Part shown: positions 33,799 to 39,795 of the stretch, in pieces
How the letters are laid out: the number at the start of each line of letters is the position of its first letter
How positions within the stretch are numbered: the first letter of the stretch is position 1
IMG/VR virus record: IMGVR_UViG_3300037470_000569
Location: 1-64,000 of that record
Length of the DNA stretch: 64,000 nucleotides
Source: a virus
Lineage: Duplodnaviria > Caudoviricetes
Strand: one strand, 5' to 3'
Notes under the pieces: generated by a model
What the model was told of the DNA's origin: nothing
Databases searched by the model: none
What the model saw: only the letters and a program-made list of their open reading frames with translations
Translations under genes and position numbers: made by a program

Positions 33799-33999
33799 TT
33801 ACTTCATTGCAGTTGTCGTAGTCATCGTCCCATTGACGGACCTGCGATGGATCGCCGCGAGTCCATAGTCGGAGAACGTCTTGACCTCACCCTCCGGCGA
33901 CGTCACGATGTACTCCGGCCGACTTGTCCCGGCAGCCAATGACTCAGCTTGCTGTTGATTCGCGACCACCCGACTCTGTCCACATGATCCACATGCCAT
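33799..33999 (-). CDS. small virion-associated protein (MACGSCG…)
   Basis: ATGA overlap with the protease stop; N-terminal CxxC typical of small genes after actinophage proteases. Confidence 0.65.
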   Translation of the reverse strand: MACGSCGQSRVVANQQQAESLAAGTSRPEYIVTSPEGEVKTFSDYGLAAIHRRSVNGTMTTTTAMK

Positions 34000-35636
34000 C
34001 AAACACTCTCCTTTGCAATCGCTCGACGTACAACGATCGTACCAGGAGGATAGGGTCCGTTCACAACAGACACCAGCTCGGAAGTTGCCACTCCTGCCGC
34101 AACGAGTGCTGTCCACGGTCCATCTTCCGTCGCGGCAGCCGCTCGCATACGTGGCACCGGGAATCCAGGGACGTTCACCGCGAGCACAGCGACCAGTCGC
34201 AGCTTTCCGGCGATAACTCTCCAGTCACCCGAAAGCGAAGCACCGCGTAGCTCACGCAGTTGCTCCTCATTCACTCGCGGTCGGAGCGCACCCGCGATCC
34301 AGATGCCGTGCGCATCCTCACCGACATTGATGTCGGCCGCACCGTGATTCGTGTCGTCGTAATGCTCGGCAGCTGGGACCGCACCCAGTTGGGTCGAGGC
34401 ATGTCCGATGCCGAACGTGATCGTACCAACCGAGACGCTCTCATCCTCGCGAGTTCGCAATTCGTGGCGGAGGAAGAAGGCATGTTCCCGCTCCTTCGGT
34501 GGAGTGATGCACCGATGAGGGAATGTCGTGTGACATGTTCCCCAGAGCGCGAGGTGCCCAAACACCTGACCCTCATCAGTAATCGTGAATGGCACCGCTT
34601 GCTTGAAGTTTGGGTCGGCGAACCAGTCGGCCGGCGGGTAGATGGGAATGCCGGCCGAGGTCAGCGCTTCACGGTCAGTCACAGTGTTCTCCGAATCGGT
34701 CTCAGCAGCGGTGAGCACGAGTGGATCACCAGCTGCAACCAGTGACTCGGTTTGAGGATCGCCAATGAGCTCAAGTCGACCCTCCACCAGGGCAGGCAGA
34801 CGGCACAGTGTCACGCCTCGAATGCGACCCTCGTGGTACACCTTCTTCTCAGGTGCACTCATCATCAACGACGGAACCCTGCCATCTTCATCCGCCGTCG
34901 CTACGACCGGCTCATCAGGGAAGATGATCTCGACTTTCCCCACCGAGTCGACGTCAACTGAGAGACCACCAGCATACCCACCTTTTACCTGCCGCACCAC
35001 CTCGCGGCCATGCTCCGAACCCATGTCGATGACGCCCCATGCTCGGATCGCCGTCGTGCCGTCGTCCTTATACTCACGCTCGATGATGTCAACACGACCG
35101 ACCGTTACGGCTTCCTCATGCTGCGGCTTATCCTTGGGCTGCCAGCCCAGAGTGATGAGGCTCGCCGCTGGCTCTTCCCATGACAGTGAGTCAACCGCAA
35201 ACTGACGACCATCACCCGTGTCACTGCCCTCGACGACAAGCACTCCGGTCCAGGGTTGAATGGAGTGATTATTTCCCGCTTCTTCACCATCCATCATCAT
35301 GGCAAGGTGCTTCGGTACGCACTTACCATTGAGCATCCGCTGTCCATCCGGACACTCATTCTCCTTGAGCCGCTTATCGGCTGGAGTACCAGATGAAGGA
35401 TCACCACCCAGGTACACTTCATCGAGACTTGCGTGAGTGTTCGCGGCGAACCGAGTCGTCAGTTCACTGGCGGCCTTGGTGACCGCCTCCTCTTGAGCGT
35501 AGAGAGCGGCCATTTGACTGTCGGCGGCTTCTTCTGAGGGATGACAACCCTCAACATCATTTGAGCCGTCCTTCACGACCGCCCAAGAACGGGAGGTCGG
35601 ACAATCAGCGTGGTTCTGCTCGGTGTGCCAGGGCAC
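33999..35636 (-). CDS. capsid maturation protease-like protein
   Basis: WTGVLVVEG..TGDGRQF, GRIRGVTL..LPA; C-terminal GQVFGHLALWGTCH…LSGDWR domain; position between MuF and capsid genes. Confidence 0.75.
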   Translation of the reverse strand: MPWHTEQNHADCPTSRSWAVVKDGSNDVEGCHPSEEAADSQMAALYAQEEAVTKAASELTTRFAANTHASLDEVYLGGDPSSGTPADKRLKENECPDGQRMLNGKCVPKHLAMMMDGEEAGNNHSIQPWTGVLVVEGSDTGDGRQFAVDSLSWEEPAASLITLGWQPKDKPQHEEAVTVGRVDIIEREYKDDGTTAIRAWGVIDMGSEHGREVVRQVKGGYAGGLSVDVDSVGKVEIIFPDEPVVATADEDGRVPSLMMSAPEKKVYHEGRIRGVTLCRLPALVEGRLELIGDPQTESLVAAGDPLVLTAAETDSENTVTDREALTSAGIPIYPPADWFADPNFKQAVPFTITDEGQVFGHLALWGTCHTTFPHRCITPPKEREHAFFLRHELRTREDESVSVGTITFGIGHASTQLGAVPAAEHYDDTNHGAADINVGEDAHGIWIAGALRPRVNEEQLRELRGASLSGDWRVIAGKLRLVAVLAVNVPGFPVPRMRAAAATEDGPWTALVAAGVATSELVSVVNGPYPPGTIVVRRAIAKESV

Positions 35637-35946: not shown

Positions 35947-38900
35947 TTAGATCATATCAAACTGAAGGATTCCATCCTCGCTCTTCCCGATGAATTTCAG
36001 CTGGGTGTTGCGCGGAAAGATCAGTTCATTCTCGTAATCCGTACCGGCGATCGTCGTCTTGCCCGCCGGTATAGCGATCTCAATGCGACGACCGCTCGAC
36101 CCGAAGCTGTTGCCCGTCATTTTCGATGTGGACGTCGACATGAAGCCATGCTCTGTAATCGTCTCACCCGGCTTAAGCTTCCCCAGATCACTCGCGTATC
36201 TGCCCTTAACGCCGCGGTTTACGAAGAGCGTTTCATTGTTCTTCTTGCCATATACCGAGAATGCCTCATCCATTTTCTTAATATTTCGAGCAGTCGTCGG
36301 TGAAGCTACTTCCTGACCACGTGCAGCCCTATTCATCGGTGTGTAGCCCGAGCCGGTGTATGCTTTATGCGCCCTCAACACAGCATCATTCGGCTTAGCT
36401 TTGTAGTCACTCTCAATCTGACTACGTGACGACTTACGAAGCATGTCCGCGTTCTTCAACGCTGTCTTACGTGTCAGTGAGTTCGGCTGCCGAATGCTCG
36501 CCGGTATACTGGATGCCACACCAGGTACGTTACTGTGCAGCCCGGGAACAGCACTAGAGACGCCGCCACCACCAGTCTTAACACCTCCGGAAGATCCGGG
36601 TGCACTCGCATTGTGACGTGTCGCTACCTTGTACTTCAGATAGTTCGTCTTCTTCTTATGCTGCTCCGGAGTAAGAACACCTTCCTTTAGCTGTGCATCG
36701 AGAAAGAACTGCTGCTTCGCTTCATCAACGTTATAATGTTCATCTTTAACTTTACCCGCTGTGAGCTTCTTCTTCGGAGTTGCTCCGACGCTACTGGGTC
36801 CGCTGCTCGAAGAAGGAGTACTTGGTCTATTAAGCTTATTCTTCTTTATGATGAATGCACTGCCATCCTCAAGCTCAACCATGACCGAATCATCGGACGC
36901 CGTCCCGATGACCTTTCCCTTTGAGCCTGAAGATGTCGTAATCTTATCACCCGTCTTAAACTCGGGACCCTTTGACTTCGACTCACCTCCTCCCACACCT
37001 TTCTTAGTAAGCACCTGCTTACCATAAAGGACAGTACCCTTATCCGTCTTAACCTTGACGAAGTTACCGTGCTCACTTACAATCTCACCTTCAGCACCAC
37101 CAGGAAGACCGACCTTATCACCAGTCTTAAGACCAGGACTCTTCGCCGCAGCGTGCTCGCTCGGGGACAACCCACCCAAAGATGATGGCTTGGTGTCAGG
37201 TGCCTTCTTCGACTTAACCTTCGGCTTCCCCGGACCCTCGCCTCCAGCACCACCAGACTTATTAATGCGCTTAGAAGCCTTCACCTTGACATAATAAGTC
37301 TTATACTTATACTCTTTCTCACTGATGGCGCCATTCGCGTACTGCCCCTCGATGTCCTTGAGCTCGGCAGCCTCGGACGCGTTCAGTCGCTTAGTGTCAA
37401 CCTTCCCAGGTGCAAGCTTCTTCTTACCCGAGCTCTGAGCGGAAGCCCCACCACCACCGCCGCCGCCGCTCTTAGGTGCGAACTTACCTTGTGAATCACG
37501 CACATAGCGATCGAACATAACGAGAGGATTAGCTGACGACGTTAGCGTGTCAAAGTGCCAGGTAATTGCACACCGGCAGTTCACGCGAGTATGAGCGGAA
37601 GCATCGGGATCGCCAGGGTAATCCAGCTTCTCGCCGTCCACCGTGAACTTACCATCCAGTGGTACCGTCTGCCCGTCAGCGACACGGTGCTCCAGTCGGG
37701 TTCGCTTATCTCGAGTCGAGTTGTGGACTACAATACCGTTCGCTACATACCAGCCGCACTCGGTCGTAAGGTCATATACATCATGCCAGCCCGCATCGAT
37801 CTTAACAATGTCGACGATCTCATCAAGCAATATCTGAGTGGAGAAAGTTGCTTGAGTATCGGACGAAGATTGGGTGTTAACAGTGGTGTCGTTGCTCGGC
37901 ATCTCCGTGAAGCTGGGATCACTCTTCGATCTCGCTCTGATATGCAGCGATTGACGATTGATAAGCTCGATGATACTAAGCGTAGTGAGATTGCGCGTAA
38001 GGGTGTTGCTACTCGAGCGACCAATGGAACCCTCAAATTGACTCTGGAGCAGAGACGACGACGCGCTCAGATTAAAGAGAGTCTCGAGTTCAATATCGGT
38101 AAGTACGAACAACTCATCGCTACTTGGCTGCGTGAACGGGGCTTGCAGCCTCGAACGCAGGTCGCCGTTGAGTTCTACAACCTCGACCTCGCACTCGATA
38201 GGCTTGACATCGAGATCCACCACAGTGCTCATCATCCGTCGACTCGAGAGACCGTCCGTCGCCGTACGAAACACCTCATCGATTTGGGGTGGTTCGTTCT
38301 CTACATCTGGGTTAAGCCCGAAATCGGTTACATTCGTGGTGATGTTCACGCCGTCCAGGGAGTGAGTACTGATATAGTGGACGAGATAATCAGATGTGCT
38401 GAGATCTCGAGCGCTGATCCAACCACGCGTGGTCAATATCGGGTGATTCGGGGTAACGGTGAGGATGTCACGCGAGGTCTGAATACGTATCAGTACTCCC
38501 GGCCCACGTCGTCGTTTCACGACCTCGAGTGGTTGCGGTGACCATACTTTCGTATCACCAGTGACACAAAGCCATGTCTTCTTACTGGGCTGTGCTTCAG
38601 GTGGCAGCAGCCGAACCTGCTGAAGCGCTCCAGCATTCGACGCCCCGATGACCTCTGTGCGAGCGATCATCGTGGCTCGAGCGTTCGTCGTCTCCAGCAC
38701 ATCCTTCACTCGAGCCGATAGCTGCGGAATCGACTCACCGCTCTGCATACCCACGATCAACTCATCGCGGGTCCGCAGCCACATATCATTACCGACGCCG
38801 ACGAGTTGGTTCTCCACCCGCGTGAGGTAAGCGTGAGCAATCGGTTGCTCCGCACTCCACAACACAGGTGCACGAACAGAAACTTCCTGAAGAACGCGGT

Positions 38901-39795
38901 CGGCGGTCTTCCGCATCACCGCTTCGAGCTCGGGTATGATCGCGTTCTTTACTTCGAGACGCCACGCTCGCTCGATGAGAACGAGTTCATCCAGTGTCAC
39001 TGATGCCGGGAAGATCGGCGCAATTGGTGTACTGGGTGGAGGCAATCCTTCAGGTAGCGGCTCAGTAGCAGCGGCAGTCAGTGATTCAGTGTTAACCGGC
39101 GGTAGGTTGTTACCCCGCATTAAAGGGTAATCGACTGACACCCCACCAAGCGCGAACCTGATGCGATCAAACTCGATGGATCCCTCAAGCTCCACCGCTT
39201 CATCGATGAAGTACTTAAGGTGCTCAACATCGTCGTATGCGAGACACATGTGAGCGACCCAGGGTAGGTGTTGCTGAGGCATCCCCCAAGCGCACTTCAC
39301 CGCGACCTGCGTGATGATGTCCTGGATGCGTTCATGTGCGAGCTCAATGCTCGCACCGCCGATTGCCAAGTTCAGACTTGGTTCATCGGTGGCATTCCAG
39401 ATACTCGCGCCAAACACCTGCCCCTCATACCACTCGCTGCTCTCAGTACTTAACTTCAATGCCCGGTGAAGTTCAGCTTGTACTTCACCCGGAATATCAT
39501 CTGAGTTGCCAAGATAAGCAAGCGTGACGTGTAGTGAATCGGGTGATTCACCGACATTCTCATCGCCGATCGCCCAGCGCTCAGAATCGACTGGAACGAG
39601 TGCGATCATCGCTCCGGTGTGCGGCTCACCGGTCGTCGAGTCGATCTGTGGAGGACCTTCAACTCCAGCCGCCGTCAGTGCTTGAGTAGTACCTACACGT
39701 ACCGCTCGACGCAACGCCTGCGAGACCAGCCGGTCGAGGCGTTCAATGAGTGTGTCTTGTTCTTCCTCAGTGAGACTTACATCAACACTCGGCAC
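35947..39795 (-). CDS. MuF-like head protein polyprotein: 2H-phosphoesterase + MuF (intein-split) + K/G/S linker + VIP2-like ADP-ribosyltransferase
   Basis: SLHVTLAYLG and VAHMCLAY; RATMIARTE…KKTWL/STRDKRTR..H…HTRVNCRC; FVNRGV, FMSTS, ENE. Confidence 0.88.
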   Translation of the reverse strand: MPSVDVSLTEEEQDTLIERLDRLVSQALRRAVRVGTTQALTAAGVEGPPQIDSTTGEPHTGAMIALVPVDSERWAIGDENVGESPDSLHVTLAYLGNSDDIPGEVQAELHRALKLSTESSEWYEGQVFGASIWNATDEPSLNLAIGGASIELAHERIQDIITQVAVKCAWGMPQQHLPWVAHMCLAYDDVEHLKYFIDEAVELEGSIEFDRIRFALGGVSVDYPLMRGNNLPPVNTESLTAAATEPLPEGLPPPSTPIAPIFPASVTLDELVLIERAWRLEVKNAIIPELEAVMRKTADRVLQEVSVRAPVLWSAEQPIAHAYLTRVENQLVGVGNDMWLRTRDELIVGMQSGESIPQLSARVKDVLETTNARATMIARTEVIGASNAGALQQVRLLPPEAQPSKKTWLCVTGDTKVWSPQPLEVVKRRRGPGVLIRIQTSRDILTVTPNHPILTTRGWISARDLSTSDYLVHYISTHSLDGVNITTNVTDFGLNPDVENEPPQIDEVFRTATDGLSSRRMMSTVVDLDVKPIECEVEVVELNGDLRSRLQAPFTQPSSDELFVLTDIELETLFNLSASSSLLQSQFEGSIGRSSSNTLTRNLTTLSIIELINRQSLHIRARSKSDPSFTEMPSNDTTVNTQSSSDTQATFSTQILLDEIVDIVKIDAGWHDVYDLTTECGWYVANGIVVHNSTRDKRTRLEHRVADGQTVPLDGKFTVDGEKLDYPGDPDASAHTRVNCRCAITWHFDTLTSSANPLVMFDRYVRDSQGKFAPKSGGGGGGGASAQSSGKKKLAPGKVDTKRLNASEAAELKDIEGQYANGAISEKEYKYKTYYVKVKASKRINKSGGAGGEGPGKPKVKSKKAPDTKPSSLGGLSPSEHAAAKSPGLKTGDKVGLPGGAEGEIVSEHGNFVKVKTDKGTVLYGKQVLTKKGVGGGESKSKGPEFKTGDKITTSSGSKGKVIGTASDDSVMVELEDGSAFIIKKNKLNRPSTPSSSSGPSSVGATPKKKLTAGKVKDEHYNVDEAKQQFFLDAQLKEGVLTPEQHKKKTNYLKYKVATRHNASAPGSSGGVKTGGGGVSSAVPGLHSNVPGVASSIPASIRQPNSLTRKTALKNADMLRKSSRSQIESDYKAKPNDAVLRAHKAYTGSGYTPMNRAARGQEVASPTTARNIKKMDEAFSVYGKKNNETLFVNRGVKGRYASDLGKLKPGETITEHGFMSTSTSKMTGNSFGSSGRRIEIAIPAGKTTIAGTDYENELIFPRNTQLKFIGKSEDGILQFDMI
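37720..38568 (-). mobile_element. intein (283 aa) in the MuF domain
   Basis: Starts CVTGDTKV (block A), has LTVTPNHPILT (block B) and VYDLTT (block F), ends GIVVHN before Ser+1. Confidence 0.92.
37783..38541 (+). CDS. putative homing endonuclease (HTH + Vsr/DUF559-type PD-(D/E)xK) encoded antisense inside the intein
   Basis: ATG at 37783 after AAGGT; HTH (GESCLSIGRRLGVNSGVVARHL); EQLIATWLRERG…YNLDLAL…IEIH…H…GWFVLYIW. Confidence 0.8.
   Translation: MPARIDLNNVDDLIKQYLSGESCLSIGRRLGVNSGVVARHLREAGITLRSRSDMQRLTIDKLDDTKRSEIARKGVATRATNGTLKLTLEQRRRRAQIKESLEFNIGKYEQLIATWLRERGLQPRTQVAVEFYNLDLALDRLDIEIHHSAHHPSTRETVRRRTKHLIDLGWFVLYIWVKPEIGYIRGDVHAVQGVSTDIVDEIIRCAEISSADPTTRGQYRVIRGNGEDVTRGLNTYQYSRPTSSFHDLEWLR

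What the first reader, a model, noticed from the sequence alone, without database searches (positions are those of the whole stretch)
37720..38568. Intein whose putative homing endonuclease is encoded on the opposite strand
Seen in sequence: the MuF gene contains a 283-aa intein (C…HN/S) with no LAGLIDADG or HNH motif in frame. The opposite strand holds a 252-codon ORF (37783-38541) with its own ATG and ribosome-binding site, an HTH and a Vsr/DUF559-type nuclease motif, lying entirely within the intein. The intein's splicing block B is read antisense to the nuclease coding region, so ~250 codons are double-coded. Established: inteins spread using homing endonucleases, normally in frame; out-of-frame versions have been described in actinophages but are rare. 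Inference: a mobile intein with an antisense-encoded nuclease.
Basis: partly seen in the sequence, partly recalled or inferred. Interest (0 to 1): 0.8.

Follow-up and report, generated by a model that had tools for sequence, protein, structure and literature searches.

The report
Intein with antisense-encoded homing nuclease

Summary
The MuF gene (35947-39795, minus strand) holds a 283-aa class 1 intein (37720-38568). Its ends fold as a HINT splicing domain, and its middle 100 residues are predicted disordered. A 252-codon ORF (37783-38541, plus strand) lies wholly inside the intein, in exact codon register. It folds confidently (pLDDT 87) into an N-terminal HTH plus a Vsr/EDxHD-type nuclease.

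Homologues of this ORF occupy the same antisense, in-register position in all 20 loci examined. These come from phages and prophages of Actinomycetota, Pseudomonadota and Chloroflexota. In nine Salmonella-type phages, substitutions in the nuclease core fall on the plus-frame third codon position, which shows purifying selection on the antisense frame.

The nuclease's ATG is the reverse complement of the intein's block F His codon. Its Shine-Dalgarno sequence comes from the neighbouring block F codons, and its YRVIRG strand mirrors block B.

The architecture (anti-sense VSR-like HEN in minor capsid inteins) is already described for actinophages in bioRxiv 10.1101/2025.01.02.630785, so this is a new member of a known kind. 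Expression, cleavage and splicing are untested.

The parts
35947..39795 (-). MuF-like head morphogenesis gene (1282 aa precursor). It has an N-terminal 2H-like region, a MuF domain split by the intein, a Gly/Lys-rich linker and a C-terminal ADP-ribosyltransferase domain.
   Evidence: ORF list. Pfam: Phage_Mu_F 4.1e-11 in two stretches, ADPrib_exo_Tox 1.4e-12. PHROGs: head morphogenesis families.
37720..38568 (-). Class 1 intein, 283 aa (MuF residues 410-692). It runs from Cys1 (38566-38568) to His282-Asn283 (37720-37725). The +1 Ser codon is 37717-37719.
   Evidence: Translation. Pfam Intein_splicing 3.5e-10. The AF2 model's ends match Mtu RecA intein 2IMZ at Z 12.5, rmsd 2.2 over 111 residues, and the 30 chains with Z 5 or more are all HINT-type splicing or autoprocessing domains (inteins, Hedgehog, BIL, Vint). 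C1, T39, H42 and N283 are invariant and H282 nearly invariant in 30 homologues.
38431..38463 (-). Intein block B (LTVTPNHPILT, with T39 and H42). On the plus strand the same bases encode nuclease residues about 217-227 (GQYRVIRGNGE).
   Evidence: Read directly from the sequence. Block B residues are invariant. The plus-frame motif is nearly invariant across 60 nuclease homologues.
37867..38166 (-). Minus-frame read-through linker (intein residues 135-234). It is Ser/Leu/Thr-rich, has no domain, and is kept open only by the absence of stops.
   Evidence: AF2 pLDDT 35-50 over residues 135-234. Composition S19 L14 T11 per 100 residues. No Pfam hit.
37759..37788 (-). Intein block F (WHDVYDLTTE). 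The His262 codon CAT (37783-37785) is the reverse complement of the nuclease's ATG. The Asp-Leu codons give the plus-strand AAGG Shine-Dalgarno sequence.
   Evidence: Read directly from the sequence. The same ATG-opposite-His with GAGGT or AAGGT upstream appears in 14 related loci parsed.
37720..37740 (-). Intein block G (NGIVVHN), which ends in the penultimate His and the terminal Asn.
   Evidence: Translation. N283 is invariant and H282 nearly invariant.
37783..38541 (+). Antisense homing-endonuclease gene: 252 codons plus TGA, lying entirely within the intein and in codon register with it.
   Evidence: ORF and translation. AF2 mean pLDDT 87.3, pTM 0.72. 1883 relatives at E<=1e-3 in the representative library. 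tblastn hits in 102 phage records; in the 58 rows listed (42 different records) the annotated feature under the match is a MuF, minor-capsid or head protein or a hypothetical protein.
37768..37771 (+). Shine-Dalgarno-like AAGG, 11 nt upstream of the nuclease ATG.
   Evidence: Sequence. Conserved GAGGT or AAGGT lies at the equivalent place in relatives.
37810..37917 (+). N-terminal helix-turn-helix DNA-binding module of the nuclease (residues 10-45).
   Evidence: Pfam HTH_58 1.3e-4. Three helices at pLDDT about 95. Structural matches: GcrA DBD Z 6.6, Tc3 transposase and resolvase HTH Z about 5. Profile hit to 2LVS at 1e-4.
38089..38415 (+). Vsr/EDxHD/DUF559-type nuclease domain (residues 103-211). 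E109, Q126, N133, D135 and E144 are invariant or nearly so. H146, H147, H150, H151 and D167 are also present.
   Evidence: VIA-align: 1CW0 Z 9.2, 3R3P Z 8.7, 3HRL Z 8.5. Foldseek top hit 3R3P, probability 0.99-1.0. Profile versus 3HRL E 3e-4. Column conservation.
37286..37313 (+). Candidate sigma-70-type promoter (TTGACA, 16 nt spacer, TATACT; 11 of 12 matches), about 470 nt upstream of the nuclease ATG on the nuclease strand. Its role is speculative.
   Evidence: Consensus scan: 3 sites found against 1.6 +/- 1.1 expected, so not significant as a count.

Best explanation
This is a composite selfish element: a class 1 intein in a phage MuF head-morphogenesis gene, with its homing endonuclease encoded as a separate gene on the opposite strand in exact codon register.

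Minus strand. The MuF precursor is translated straight through the element. The intein's N-terminal part (about residues 1-134) and C-terminal part (235-283) fold into a HINT domain around a disordered linker of about 100 residues. That linker is simply the antisense reading of the nuclease gene. Splicing at Cys410 and Asn692/Ser693 restores ...KTWL-STRD....

Plus strand. A 252-aa protein is made from its own ATG and Shine-Dalgarno sequence. It has an N-terminal HTH, a helical linker and a Vsr/EDxHD-type catalytic domain. I infer that, in a mixed infection, it cuts intein-less MuF alleles near the KTWL|STRD codons, and that repair from the intein-bearing copy spreads both genes together.

How the two genes are interlocked:
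- The nuclease ATG is the reverse complement of the block F His codon.
- Its Shine-Dalgarno sequence comes from the block F Asp-Leu codons.
- Its YRVIRG strand mirrors block B (TPNHPI).
- Its stop codon mirrors Ser10 of the intein.
- Each frame stays open only because the other avoids TTA, CTA and TCA.

Shown here: both folds, the register, conservation, purifying selection on the antisense frame in relatives, and the empty-site junction.
Inferred: transcription and translation of the antisense gene, the cleavage target, present-day activity, and splicing.
For: Two folds from one stretch of DNA:
- Plus frame: pLDDT 87.3, matching Vsr 1CW0 Z 9.2, I-Bth0305I 3R3P Z 8.7 and DUF559 3HRL Z 8.5.
- Minus frame: the ends match HINT (2IMZ Z 12.5), and residues 135-234 have pLDDT below 50.

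Conservation of the arrangement:
- tblastn with the nuclease finds 102 phage records; in the rows listed the annotated gene under the match is a MuF, minor-capsid or head gene or a hypothetical protein.
- In all 17 annotated records fetched, the match lies on the strand opposite the gene.
- Of these, 10 loci were checked for frame, together with 9 loci from GTDB genomes and the window itself. In all 20 the ORF is intact and in the same codon register.

Selection, in nine Guernseyvirinae phages:
- Changes counted at plus-frame positions 1:2:3 are 122:14:27 and 282:61:104 in the exteins (minus-frame pattern).
- In nuclease codons 21-205 they are 43:22:104 (plus-frame pattern). Chi-square 108.8, p 2e-24.

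Stop avoidance: P = 1.8e-3 in the window, down to 1e-8 in Vibrio phage H2.

Catalytic residues: E109 is in 58 of 60 homologues; D135, E144, Q126 and N133 are in all 60.

Empty site: eight MuF alleles at 65-68% extein identity lack the intein and read (K/R)KTW(L/V)|(S/A)T(R/H)D without a break.

Translation signals: ATG opposite the block F His, with GAGGT or AAGGT upstream, in 14 loci.

Codon-position GC in the window itself: the nuclease core read as plus gives 0.60/0.42/0.52, with GC1 highest as in the reference genes (0.65/0.47/0.58). Read as minus it does not.

Mobility in relatives: the intein is more similar than both flanking exteins in 32 of 36 pairs, for example 95.7% against 65% and 80% for Salmonella sam versus E. 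coli Snoke.
Against: - There are no expression, cleavage or splicing data.
- The selection test was done on a distant lineage (about 29% nuclease identity), because no DNA of close relatives could be fetched. The window's own copy could therefore be a recently inactivated relic.
- The histidines proposed as general base are only partly conserved in the family (H146 in 37 of 60, H151 in 27 of 60).
- The single-sequence Pfam nuclease hits are below the curated cut-offs.
- The higher intein identity in Guernseyvirinae could partly reflect dual-coding constraint rather than transfer.
- No convincing promoter was shown for the antisense gene; the 11/12 consensus site lies 470 nt away.
- High pLDDT for the YRVIRG strand may be inflated, because its conservation is imposed by block B on the other strand.
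Confidence: 0.8

Rival explanations
1. The element is real, but in this phage it is a vertically inherited relic. The intein still splices, as it must for MuF to work. The antisense nuclease is no longer expressed or no longer cuts, and its frame is still open only because decay has not yet set in.
For: There is no evidence of expression. No close relatives with DNA were available, so selection on this copy is unmeasured. The preprint notes that several VSR-like-HEN inteins show vertical patterns. The His residues are variable in the family.
Against: The ORF is intact over 252 codons, with the family's ATG and Shine-Dalgarno sequence and all invariant catalytic residues. P(open by chance) is 1.8e-3. 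The closest MuF alleles lack the intein while more distant ones carry it at the same site, and this patchy pattern is typical of mobility.
Confidence: 0.15
2. The antisense ORF is a non-coding shadow. In-register antisense frames of GC-rich genes often lack stops, and its similarity between phages merely reflects conservation of the intein frame.
For: The in-register antisense frame is the one most often open by chance. The ends of the plus-strand ORF (YRVIRG, MPAK) do mirror conserved intein blocks B and F. In Pseudomonas phage BR313c the three critical codons are absent from the exteins too, so openness there is uninformative.
Against: In relatives, substitutions in the core fall on plus-frame third positions, the opposite of the exteins (p 2e-24). 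The plus frame folds at pLDDT 87 into a known nuclease fold with invariant acidic residues, while the minus frame there is predicted disordered. The ORF is also open in low-GC phages, where chance openness is 1e-5 to 1e-8.
Confidence: 0.03
3. The nuclease is functional but does not serve intein homing. It would be a free-standing-type phage nuclease that uses the intein as a harmless landing pad and cuts some other target, for example competitor phage DNA elsewhere, or acts in exclusion or recombination.
For: The preprint proposes an origin by invasion of an intein by a free-standing HEN. The target site is unknown. Phage HEGs often cut sites next to, rather than within, their own insertion point.
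Against: In every one of the 20 loci with DNA the nuclease is nested in an intein in the same register, and 123 of the 150 best hits keep the block B mirror motif by a strict pattern, most of the rest carrying variant forms. That degree of co-inheritance is expected if the two spread as one unit. In Guernseyvirinae the intein plus nuclease is more conserved than both exteins.
Confidence: 0.07

Closest known systems
Anti-sense VSR-like HEN inteins of actinobacteriophages (Gosselin, Arsenault & Gogarten, bioRxiv 10.1101/2025.01.02.630785)
   Same: A full intein with no in-frame endonuclease and a Vsr-like nuclease ORF on the antisense strand inside it. The host genes include the minor capsid (MuF) protein. 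Their AlphaFold model matched Vsr 1CW0 (Z 10.6) and HHpred matched 3R3P, the same two structures found here. The best DNA-level relative found here, Mycobacterium phage Sejanus, is an actinophage.
   Different: - The preprint covers PhagesDB only. Here the same element is in an uncultured 81-kb phage and in phages or prophages of Salmonella, E. coli, Pantoea, Pseudomonas, Vibrio, Aggregatibacter, Idiomarinaceae, Filomicrobium, Lamprocystis and Chloroflexota.
[quoted passage not shown] Here the ORF overlaps blocks B and F, and takes its ATG and Shine-Dalgarno sequence from block F.
- The fixed codon register and the codon-position selection test are not in the preprint's main text.
I-Bth0305I and the EDxHD homing endonuclease family (Taylor et al. 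2011, PMC3239194; Dassa et al. 2009, PMC2677866)
   Same: A two-part protein with an N-terminal DNA-binding region (HTH) and a C-terminal Vsr-like catalytic domain. [quoted passage not shown] The family is associated with introns, split inteins and phages. Structural match Z 8.7, Foldseek probability 0.99-1.0.
   Different: - I-Bth0305I sits in a group I intron. The Dassa family members lie between split-intein halves as separate genes, not antisense inside a contiguous intein.
- Sequence similarity is undetectable by phmmer.
- NUMOD motifs were not examined.
- The His of EDxHD is only partly conserved in this family.
Anti-sense LAGLIDADG inteins (Synechocystis DnaX and others; Gorbalenya 1998 and Gogarten 2002, as cited in the preprint)
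   Same: The homing endonuclease is encoded on the strand opposite the intein's splicing domain, and the intein frame is read through.
   Different: A different nuclease family (LAGLIDADG versus Vsr-like). I did not examine those sequences.
DUF559 / Vsr very-short-patch repair endonucleases (PF04480; PDB 3HRL, 1CW0, 1VSR)
   Same: The same core fold and the same acidic active-site positions. Profile hit to 3HRL at E 3e-4 over residues 102-196; Z 8.5-9.2.
   Different: Those are stand-alone cellular proteins with no HTH and no intein context. The Pfam DUF559 score is far below its cut-off (13.6 against 20.6 bits). No Vsr zinc site or intercalating Trp residues were identified.

Membership tests
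Class 1 intein (HINT splicing domain) | N-terminal Cys or Ser nucleophile (block A) | tested here: met
   Cys1 (TGT, 38566-38568). It is invariant in 30 homologous inteins.
Class 1 intein (HINT splicing domain) | Block B TxxH motif | tested here: met
   T39-P-N-H42. T39 and H42 are invariant.
Class 1 intein (HINT splicing domain) | C-terminal His-Asn followed by a Cys, Ser or Thr at +1 (block G) | tested here: met
   H282-N283, then Ser. N283 is invariant and H282 is in at least 90% of homologues.
Class 1 intein (HINT splicing domain) | HINT fold | tested here: met
   The AF2 model matches 2IMZ at Z 12.5 (rmsd 2.2, 111 aligned) and 4O1R at Z 12.4. The 30 chains with Z 5 or more are all HINT-type splicing or autoprocessing domains: inteins, Hedgehog, BIL and Vint. 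Pfam PF14890 scores 40.3 bits against a cut-off of 35.8.
Class 1 intein (HINT splicing domain) | Removing the insert restores a contiguous, conserved host protein | tested here: met
   Eight intein-less MuF alleles align on both sides and meet at one residue, reading ...KTWL|STRD....
Class 1 intein (HINT splicing domain) | Protein splicing activity | not testable with these tools
   This needs expression of the precursor and detection of spliced MuF.
Vsr-like / EDxHD homing endonuclease | Vsr-type alpha/beta nuclease fold | tested here: met
   1CW0 Z 9.2 (112 aligned), 3R3P Z 8.7 (91 of 98 aligned), 3HRL Z 8.5. Foldseek probability 0.99-1.0 for 3R3P.
Vsr-like / EDxHD homing endonuclease | Conserved catalytic residues (Glu, metal-binding Asp, His general base, second Asp) | tested here: inconclusive
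   E109 (58/60), D135 (60/60) and E144 (60/60) are conserved. The candidate His residues are partly conserved (H146 37/60, H151 27/60), as is D167 (32/60). All are present in the window's protein. The equivalences to Vsr residues come from sequence patterns, not from a superposition I inspected.
Vsr-like / EDxHD homing endonuclease | Separate N-terminal DNA-binding module | tested here: met
   HTH at residues 10-45: Pfam HTH_58 1.3e-4, and structural matches to the GcrA, Tc3 and resolvase HTH domains. NUMOD motifs were not tested.
Vsr-like / EDxHD homing endonuclease | Site-specific cleavage of the element-free allele | not testable with these tools
   This needs an in vitro cleavage assay.
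Anti-sense VSR-like HEN intein (Gosselin et al. 2025 preprint) | Nuclease ORF on the opposite strand, inside a contiguous intein that has no in-frame HEN domain | tested here: met
   Plus-strand ORF 37783-38541 lies within minus-strand intein 37720-38568. The minus-frame middle has no Pfam domain and is predicted disordered.
Pfam DUF559 (PF04480) and REase_MTES_1575 (PF18741) | Score at or above Pfam's gathering cut-off | tested here: not met
   DUF559: 13.6 bits against 20.6. MTES_1575: 30.2 bits against 38.2. The protein is related by fold and profile but is not a member by Pfam's own threshold.

The most novel reading that the evidence does not exclude
The Vsr-like nuclease family seen here may exist only as an antisense passenger locked in codon register to one intein lineage. 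The representative library holds 1883 relatives at E<=1e-3. On this reading the pair has co-evolved as a single two-strand gene across phages of at least three bacterial phyla.

The nuclease's start codon, ribosome-binding site and a conserved C-terminal beta-strand would then be written by the reverse complement of the intein's catalytic blocks F and B. Two folded, catalytically active proteins would share long stretches of the same codons. That would make it one of the most extensive natural cases of functional antisense dual coding, and a ready system for studying how two enzymes evolve on opposite strands.
Probability: 0.45. Interest if true: 0.7.

Novelty: new member of a known kind. Interest (0 to 1): 0.5.

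Why it matters
- It confirms, in an uncultured phage, that an intein's homing enzyme can be a separate antisense gene. Standard annotation misses this: none of the 17 annotated phage records inspected names the nuclease.
- The element is not an actinophage curiosity. It is common in MuF genes of phages infecting Salmonella, E. coli, Pseudomonas, Vibrio and others, so many inteins listed as "mini" or "decaying" may in fact carry hidden nucleases.
- The interlocking of the nuclease's translation signals and one strand with intein blocks F and B gives a natural model of two-strand dual coding.
- It also bears on how inteins acquire endonucleases (the "splicing first, nuclease later" idea).
- The culturable Salmonella and Gordonia phages offer tractable systems to test homing.

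Tried and rejected
- blastn (distant mode) of 37400-38900 against the phage collection found no match.
- The search for related loci in viral contigs with P0001 and with P0005 confirmed no relatives.
- Alignment A1 was too diverse for pattern search.
- phmmer of the single nuclease sequence against PDB gave only a chance hit to PheRS at E 2.6; the profile search was needed.
- The search for homologous proteins with the nuclease returned only one called protein, probably because gene callers skip nested antisense ORFs.

Because of that:
- I could not fetch DNA for the closest nuclease relatives (P0005 and P0006, 42-44% identity) or for the intein-less MuF alleles.
- I could not derive the DNA target site.
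- I could not run a codon-position or dN/dS test on the window's own lineage.

Analyses that did not settle anything:
- A maximum-likelihood tree of 23 nuclease sequences was star-like. Only window+P0005+P0006 was supported (99/99). The two site-A elements (window and Sejanus) did not form a supported clade, so the number of site switches is unresolved.
- The alternative upstream GTG start at 37555 (328 aa) was rejected, because the family alignment begins at the ATG opposite the block F His.
- The promoter scan count was not above the shuffled expectation.
Full report
**Source of the window.** The window is part of an IMG/VR virus record of 80,678 bases that CheckV rates 99% complete. Window GC is 0.56.

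**What is at the coordinates**
- A minus-strand ORF of 1282 aa (35947-39795) is a MuF-type head morphogenesis protein. Pfam finds Phage_Mu_F in two separated stretches, Intein_splicing, and a C-terminal ADP-ribosyltransferase domain. PHROGs gives head-morphogenesis families on both sides of the insert.
- Window 37720-38568 (minus) translates to 283 residues that begin with Cys, end with His-Asn, and are followed by Ser.
- In that frame the only Pfam hit is Intein_splicing (3.5e-10); no endonuclease family is hit.
- On the plus strand, ATG 37783 to TGA 38541 is a 252-codon ORF lying entirely inside the intein. AAGG lies 11 nt upstream of the ATG.
- Its Pfam hits are HTH_58 (1.3e-4), REase_MTES_1575 (5e-7) and DUF559 (0.064). 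All are below the curated cut-offs.
- The two frames are in exact codon register: plus position 1 faces minus position 3. A stop in one frame therefore corresponds to TTA, CTA or TCA in the other.
- At this phage's codon usage (2.47% for those three codons), 252 codons without one has probability 1.8e-3 per strand.

**Both readings of the DNA were folded**

| Reading | Alignment used | Confidence | Structural matches |
|---|---|---|---|
| Plus frame (nuclease) | 60 sequences | mean pLDDT 87.3, pTM 0.72 | Residues 1-46: HTH domains (GcrA, Tc3, resolvase). Residues about 103-246: Vsr 1CW0 Z 9.2, I-Bth0305I 3R3P Z 8.7, DUF559 protein 3HRL Z 8.5. Foldseek ranks 3R3P first, probability 0.99-1.0. 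|
| Minus frame (intein) | 30 sequences | residues 1-70 and 240-283 confident (pLDDT 80-98); residues 135-234 below 50 | Intein splicing domains: 2IMZ Z 12.5. The 30 chains with Z 5 or more are all HINT-type domains. |

- A profile of the nuclease family hits 3HRL at E 3e-4.
- E109, Q126, N133, D135 and E144 are invariant or nearly so in 60 diverse homologues. The candidate histidines are only partly conserved.
- The middle of the intein is therefore an unstructured read-through of the nuclease gene. The minus-frame linker is Ser/Leu/Thr-rich.

**The arrangement is conserved across lineages**
- tblastn with the nuclease finds 102 phage records at 25-35% identity. In the rows listed, the annotated feature under the match is a MuF, minor capsid, head morphogenesis, capsid maturation protease or ADP-ribosyltransferase gene, or a hypothetical protein.
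- In each of the 17 records I fetched, the match lies on the strand opposite that gene.
- A pattern search of one genome per prokaryotic species added nine loci: a Mycobacterium MAG, two other actinobacterial MAGs (one labelled Actinomycetes, one Actinobacteria), an unclassified uncultured bacterium, Chloroflexota (three), Filomicrobium and Lamprocystis.
- I checked the frame in 20 loci: ten of the fetched phage records, these nine, and the window itself. In all 20 the nuclease ORF is intact, nested in an intein, and in the same codon register.
- The exteins are Phage_Mu_F, the related Phage_min_cap2, and portal-MuF fusions.
- In low-GC phages, chance openness is remote: 8e-6 for Aaphi23 and 1e-8 for Vibrio phage H2.
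- An exhaustive HMMER search of 1.84 billion representatives finds 1883 relatives at E<=1e-3 and 911 at E<=1e-10.
- Of the best 150 hits, 123 carry the motif that mirrors intein block B by a strict pattern. Most of the other 27 carry recognisable variants of it.

**Selection acts on the antisense frame.** Nine Guernseyvirinae phages align without internal gaps.

| Region | Minimum changes at plus positions 1:2:3 | Pattern |
|---|---|---|
| C-extein | 122:14:27 | minus-frame third position free |
| N-extein | 282:61:104 | minus-frame third position free |
| Nuclease codons 21-205 | 43:22:104 | plus-frame third position free |

- The contingency chi-square is 108.8, p 2e-24.
- In 25-codon windows, the plus-frame pattern holds over codons 51-175.
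- The ends, which overlap the splicing blocks, are mixed.
- In the window itself, GC by codon position points the same way. The core read as plus gives 0.60/0.42/0.52, with GC1 highest as in reference genes (0.65/0.47/0.58). Read as minus it does not.

**The empty site**
- A search with the MuF region found eight alleles at 65-68% extein identity that lack PF14890.
- Their two alignment blocks meet at a single residue, and the junction reads ...(K/R)KTW(L/V)|(S/A)T(R/H)D(G/K)RTR....
- More distant MuF proteins (33-41% identity) carry an intein at the same point. The distribution is therefore patchy.
- Most other lineages have the element at a different point of MuF, N|C(R/K)C. One lineage has it two residues further on.
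- A tree of the nucleases is unresolved at depth, so I cannot say how many site changes occurred.
- In Guernseyvirinae the intein is more similar than both exteins in 32 of 36 pairs. This fits horizontal spread, though dual-coding constraint may contribute.

**How tightly the two genes interlock**
- The nuclease ATG (37783-37785) is the reverse complement of the CAT for the conserved block F His (intein residue 262).
- The preceding block F codons (Asp/Asn-Leu) give GAGGT or AAGGT at Shine-Dalgarno distance. This holds in the 14 loci that my pattern parsed.
- The nuclease motif GQYRVIRGNG is the reverse complement of block B, TVTPNHPILT.
- The TGA stop is the reverse complement of the Ser10 codon.
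- Conversely, the conserved minus-frame motif DFHGDG, seen in most relatives, mirrors the nuclease's AVEV active-site strand.

**What is already known**
- The preprint by Gosselin, Arsenault and Gogarten (bioRxiv 10.1101/2025.01.02.630785) reports 63 non-canonical inteins in actinophages. They include anti-sense VSR-like HENs, with the minor capsid protein among the host genes. Their AlphaFold match was to 1CW0 and their HHpred match to 3R3P.
- Antisense LAGLIDADG inteins are older still (cited there).
- The Vsr-like HEN family was defined by Dassa et al. 2009 (PMC2677866) and Taylor et al. 2011 (PMC3239194).
- The window's element is therefore a new member of a described kind.

**Limits**
- Nothing here shows transcription, translation, cleavage or splicing.
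- The selection test is on a distant lineage.
DNA of the nearest relatives and of the empty alleles was therefore out of reach.

Noticed in passing
window 35947-39795 (-): The MuF protein is a large fusion. It has a weak 2',5' RNA ligase/2H-like hit at the N-terminus (PF13563, E 0.061, aa 87-191), Gly/Lys-rich linkers with a YajC-like segment (aa 946-984), and a clear C-terminal ADP-ribosyltransferase domain (PF03496, 1.4e-12, aa 1125-1267). This looks like a MuF-borne toxin or effector cargo.
   Followed up: no
window 37286-37313 (+): A near-consensus sigma-70 promoter (TTGACA, 16 nt spacer, TATACT; 11 of 12 matches) lies antisense inside the MuF C-extein, about 470 nt upstream of the nuclease ATG. 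It could drive the antisense transcript, but the overall count of such sites is not above the shuffled expectation.
   Followed up: partly
L003, L005, L012-L018 (Guernseyvirinae phages of Salmonella, E. coli, Pantoea): The intein plus nuclease segment is more conserved than both flanking MuF exteins in 32 of 36 pairs. For sam versus Snoke it is 95.7% against 65% and 80%. This suggests recent horizontal spread of the element among diverged MuF alleles.
   Followed up: partly
L001-L010, L019-L027: The same intein-nuclease unit occupies at least three points in MuF-type genes: W(L/V)|(S/C)T.D in the window and Sejanus, N|C(R/K)C in most others, and NCR|C in L026. Rhodococcus phage REQ3 has an Ala1 (class 3-like) version with a shortened nuclease.
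   Followed up: partly
L003 2730-3131 (+); L005 1935-2564: Public annotations miss the nuclease. Salmonella phage sam lists only a 133-aa 'hypothetical protein' fragment (BBO65996.1) on the nuclease strand. E. coli phage Snoke annotates the intein as a mat_peptide but has no antisense gene.
   Followed up: no
P0196, P0205 (proteins): Intein regions similar to this one also occur in a UDG/DNA polymerase A fusion and in a VG15-glutamine deamidase toxin protein. This intein lineage, and perhaps its antisense nuclease, may therefore have moved beyond MuF. No DNA was available to check the opposite strand.
   Followed up: no
window 33999-35636 (-): The 545-aa ORF downstream of MuF resembles the C-terminal part of Sejanus gp8, which is annotated as a capsid maturation protease fused to MuF. 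What is one gene in Sejanus is two genes here.
   Followed up: no
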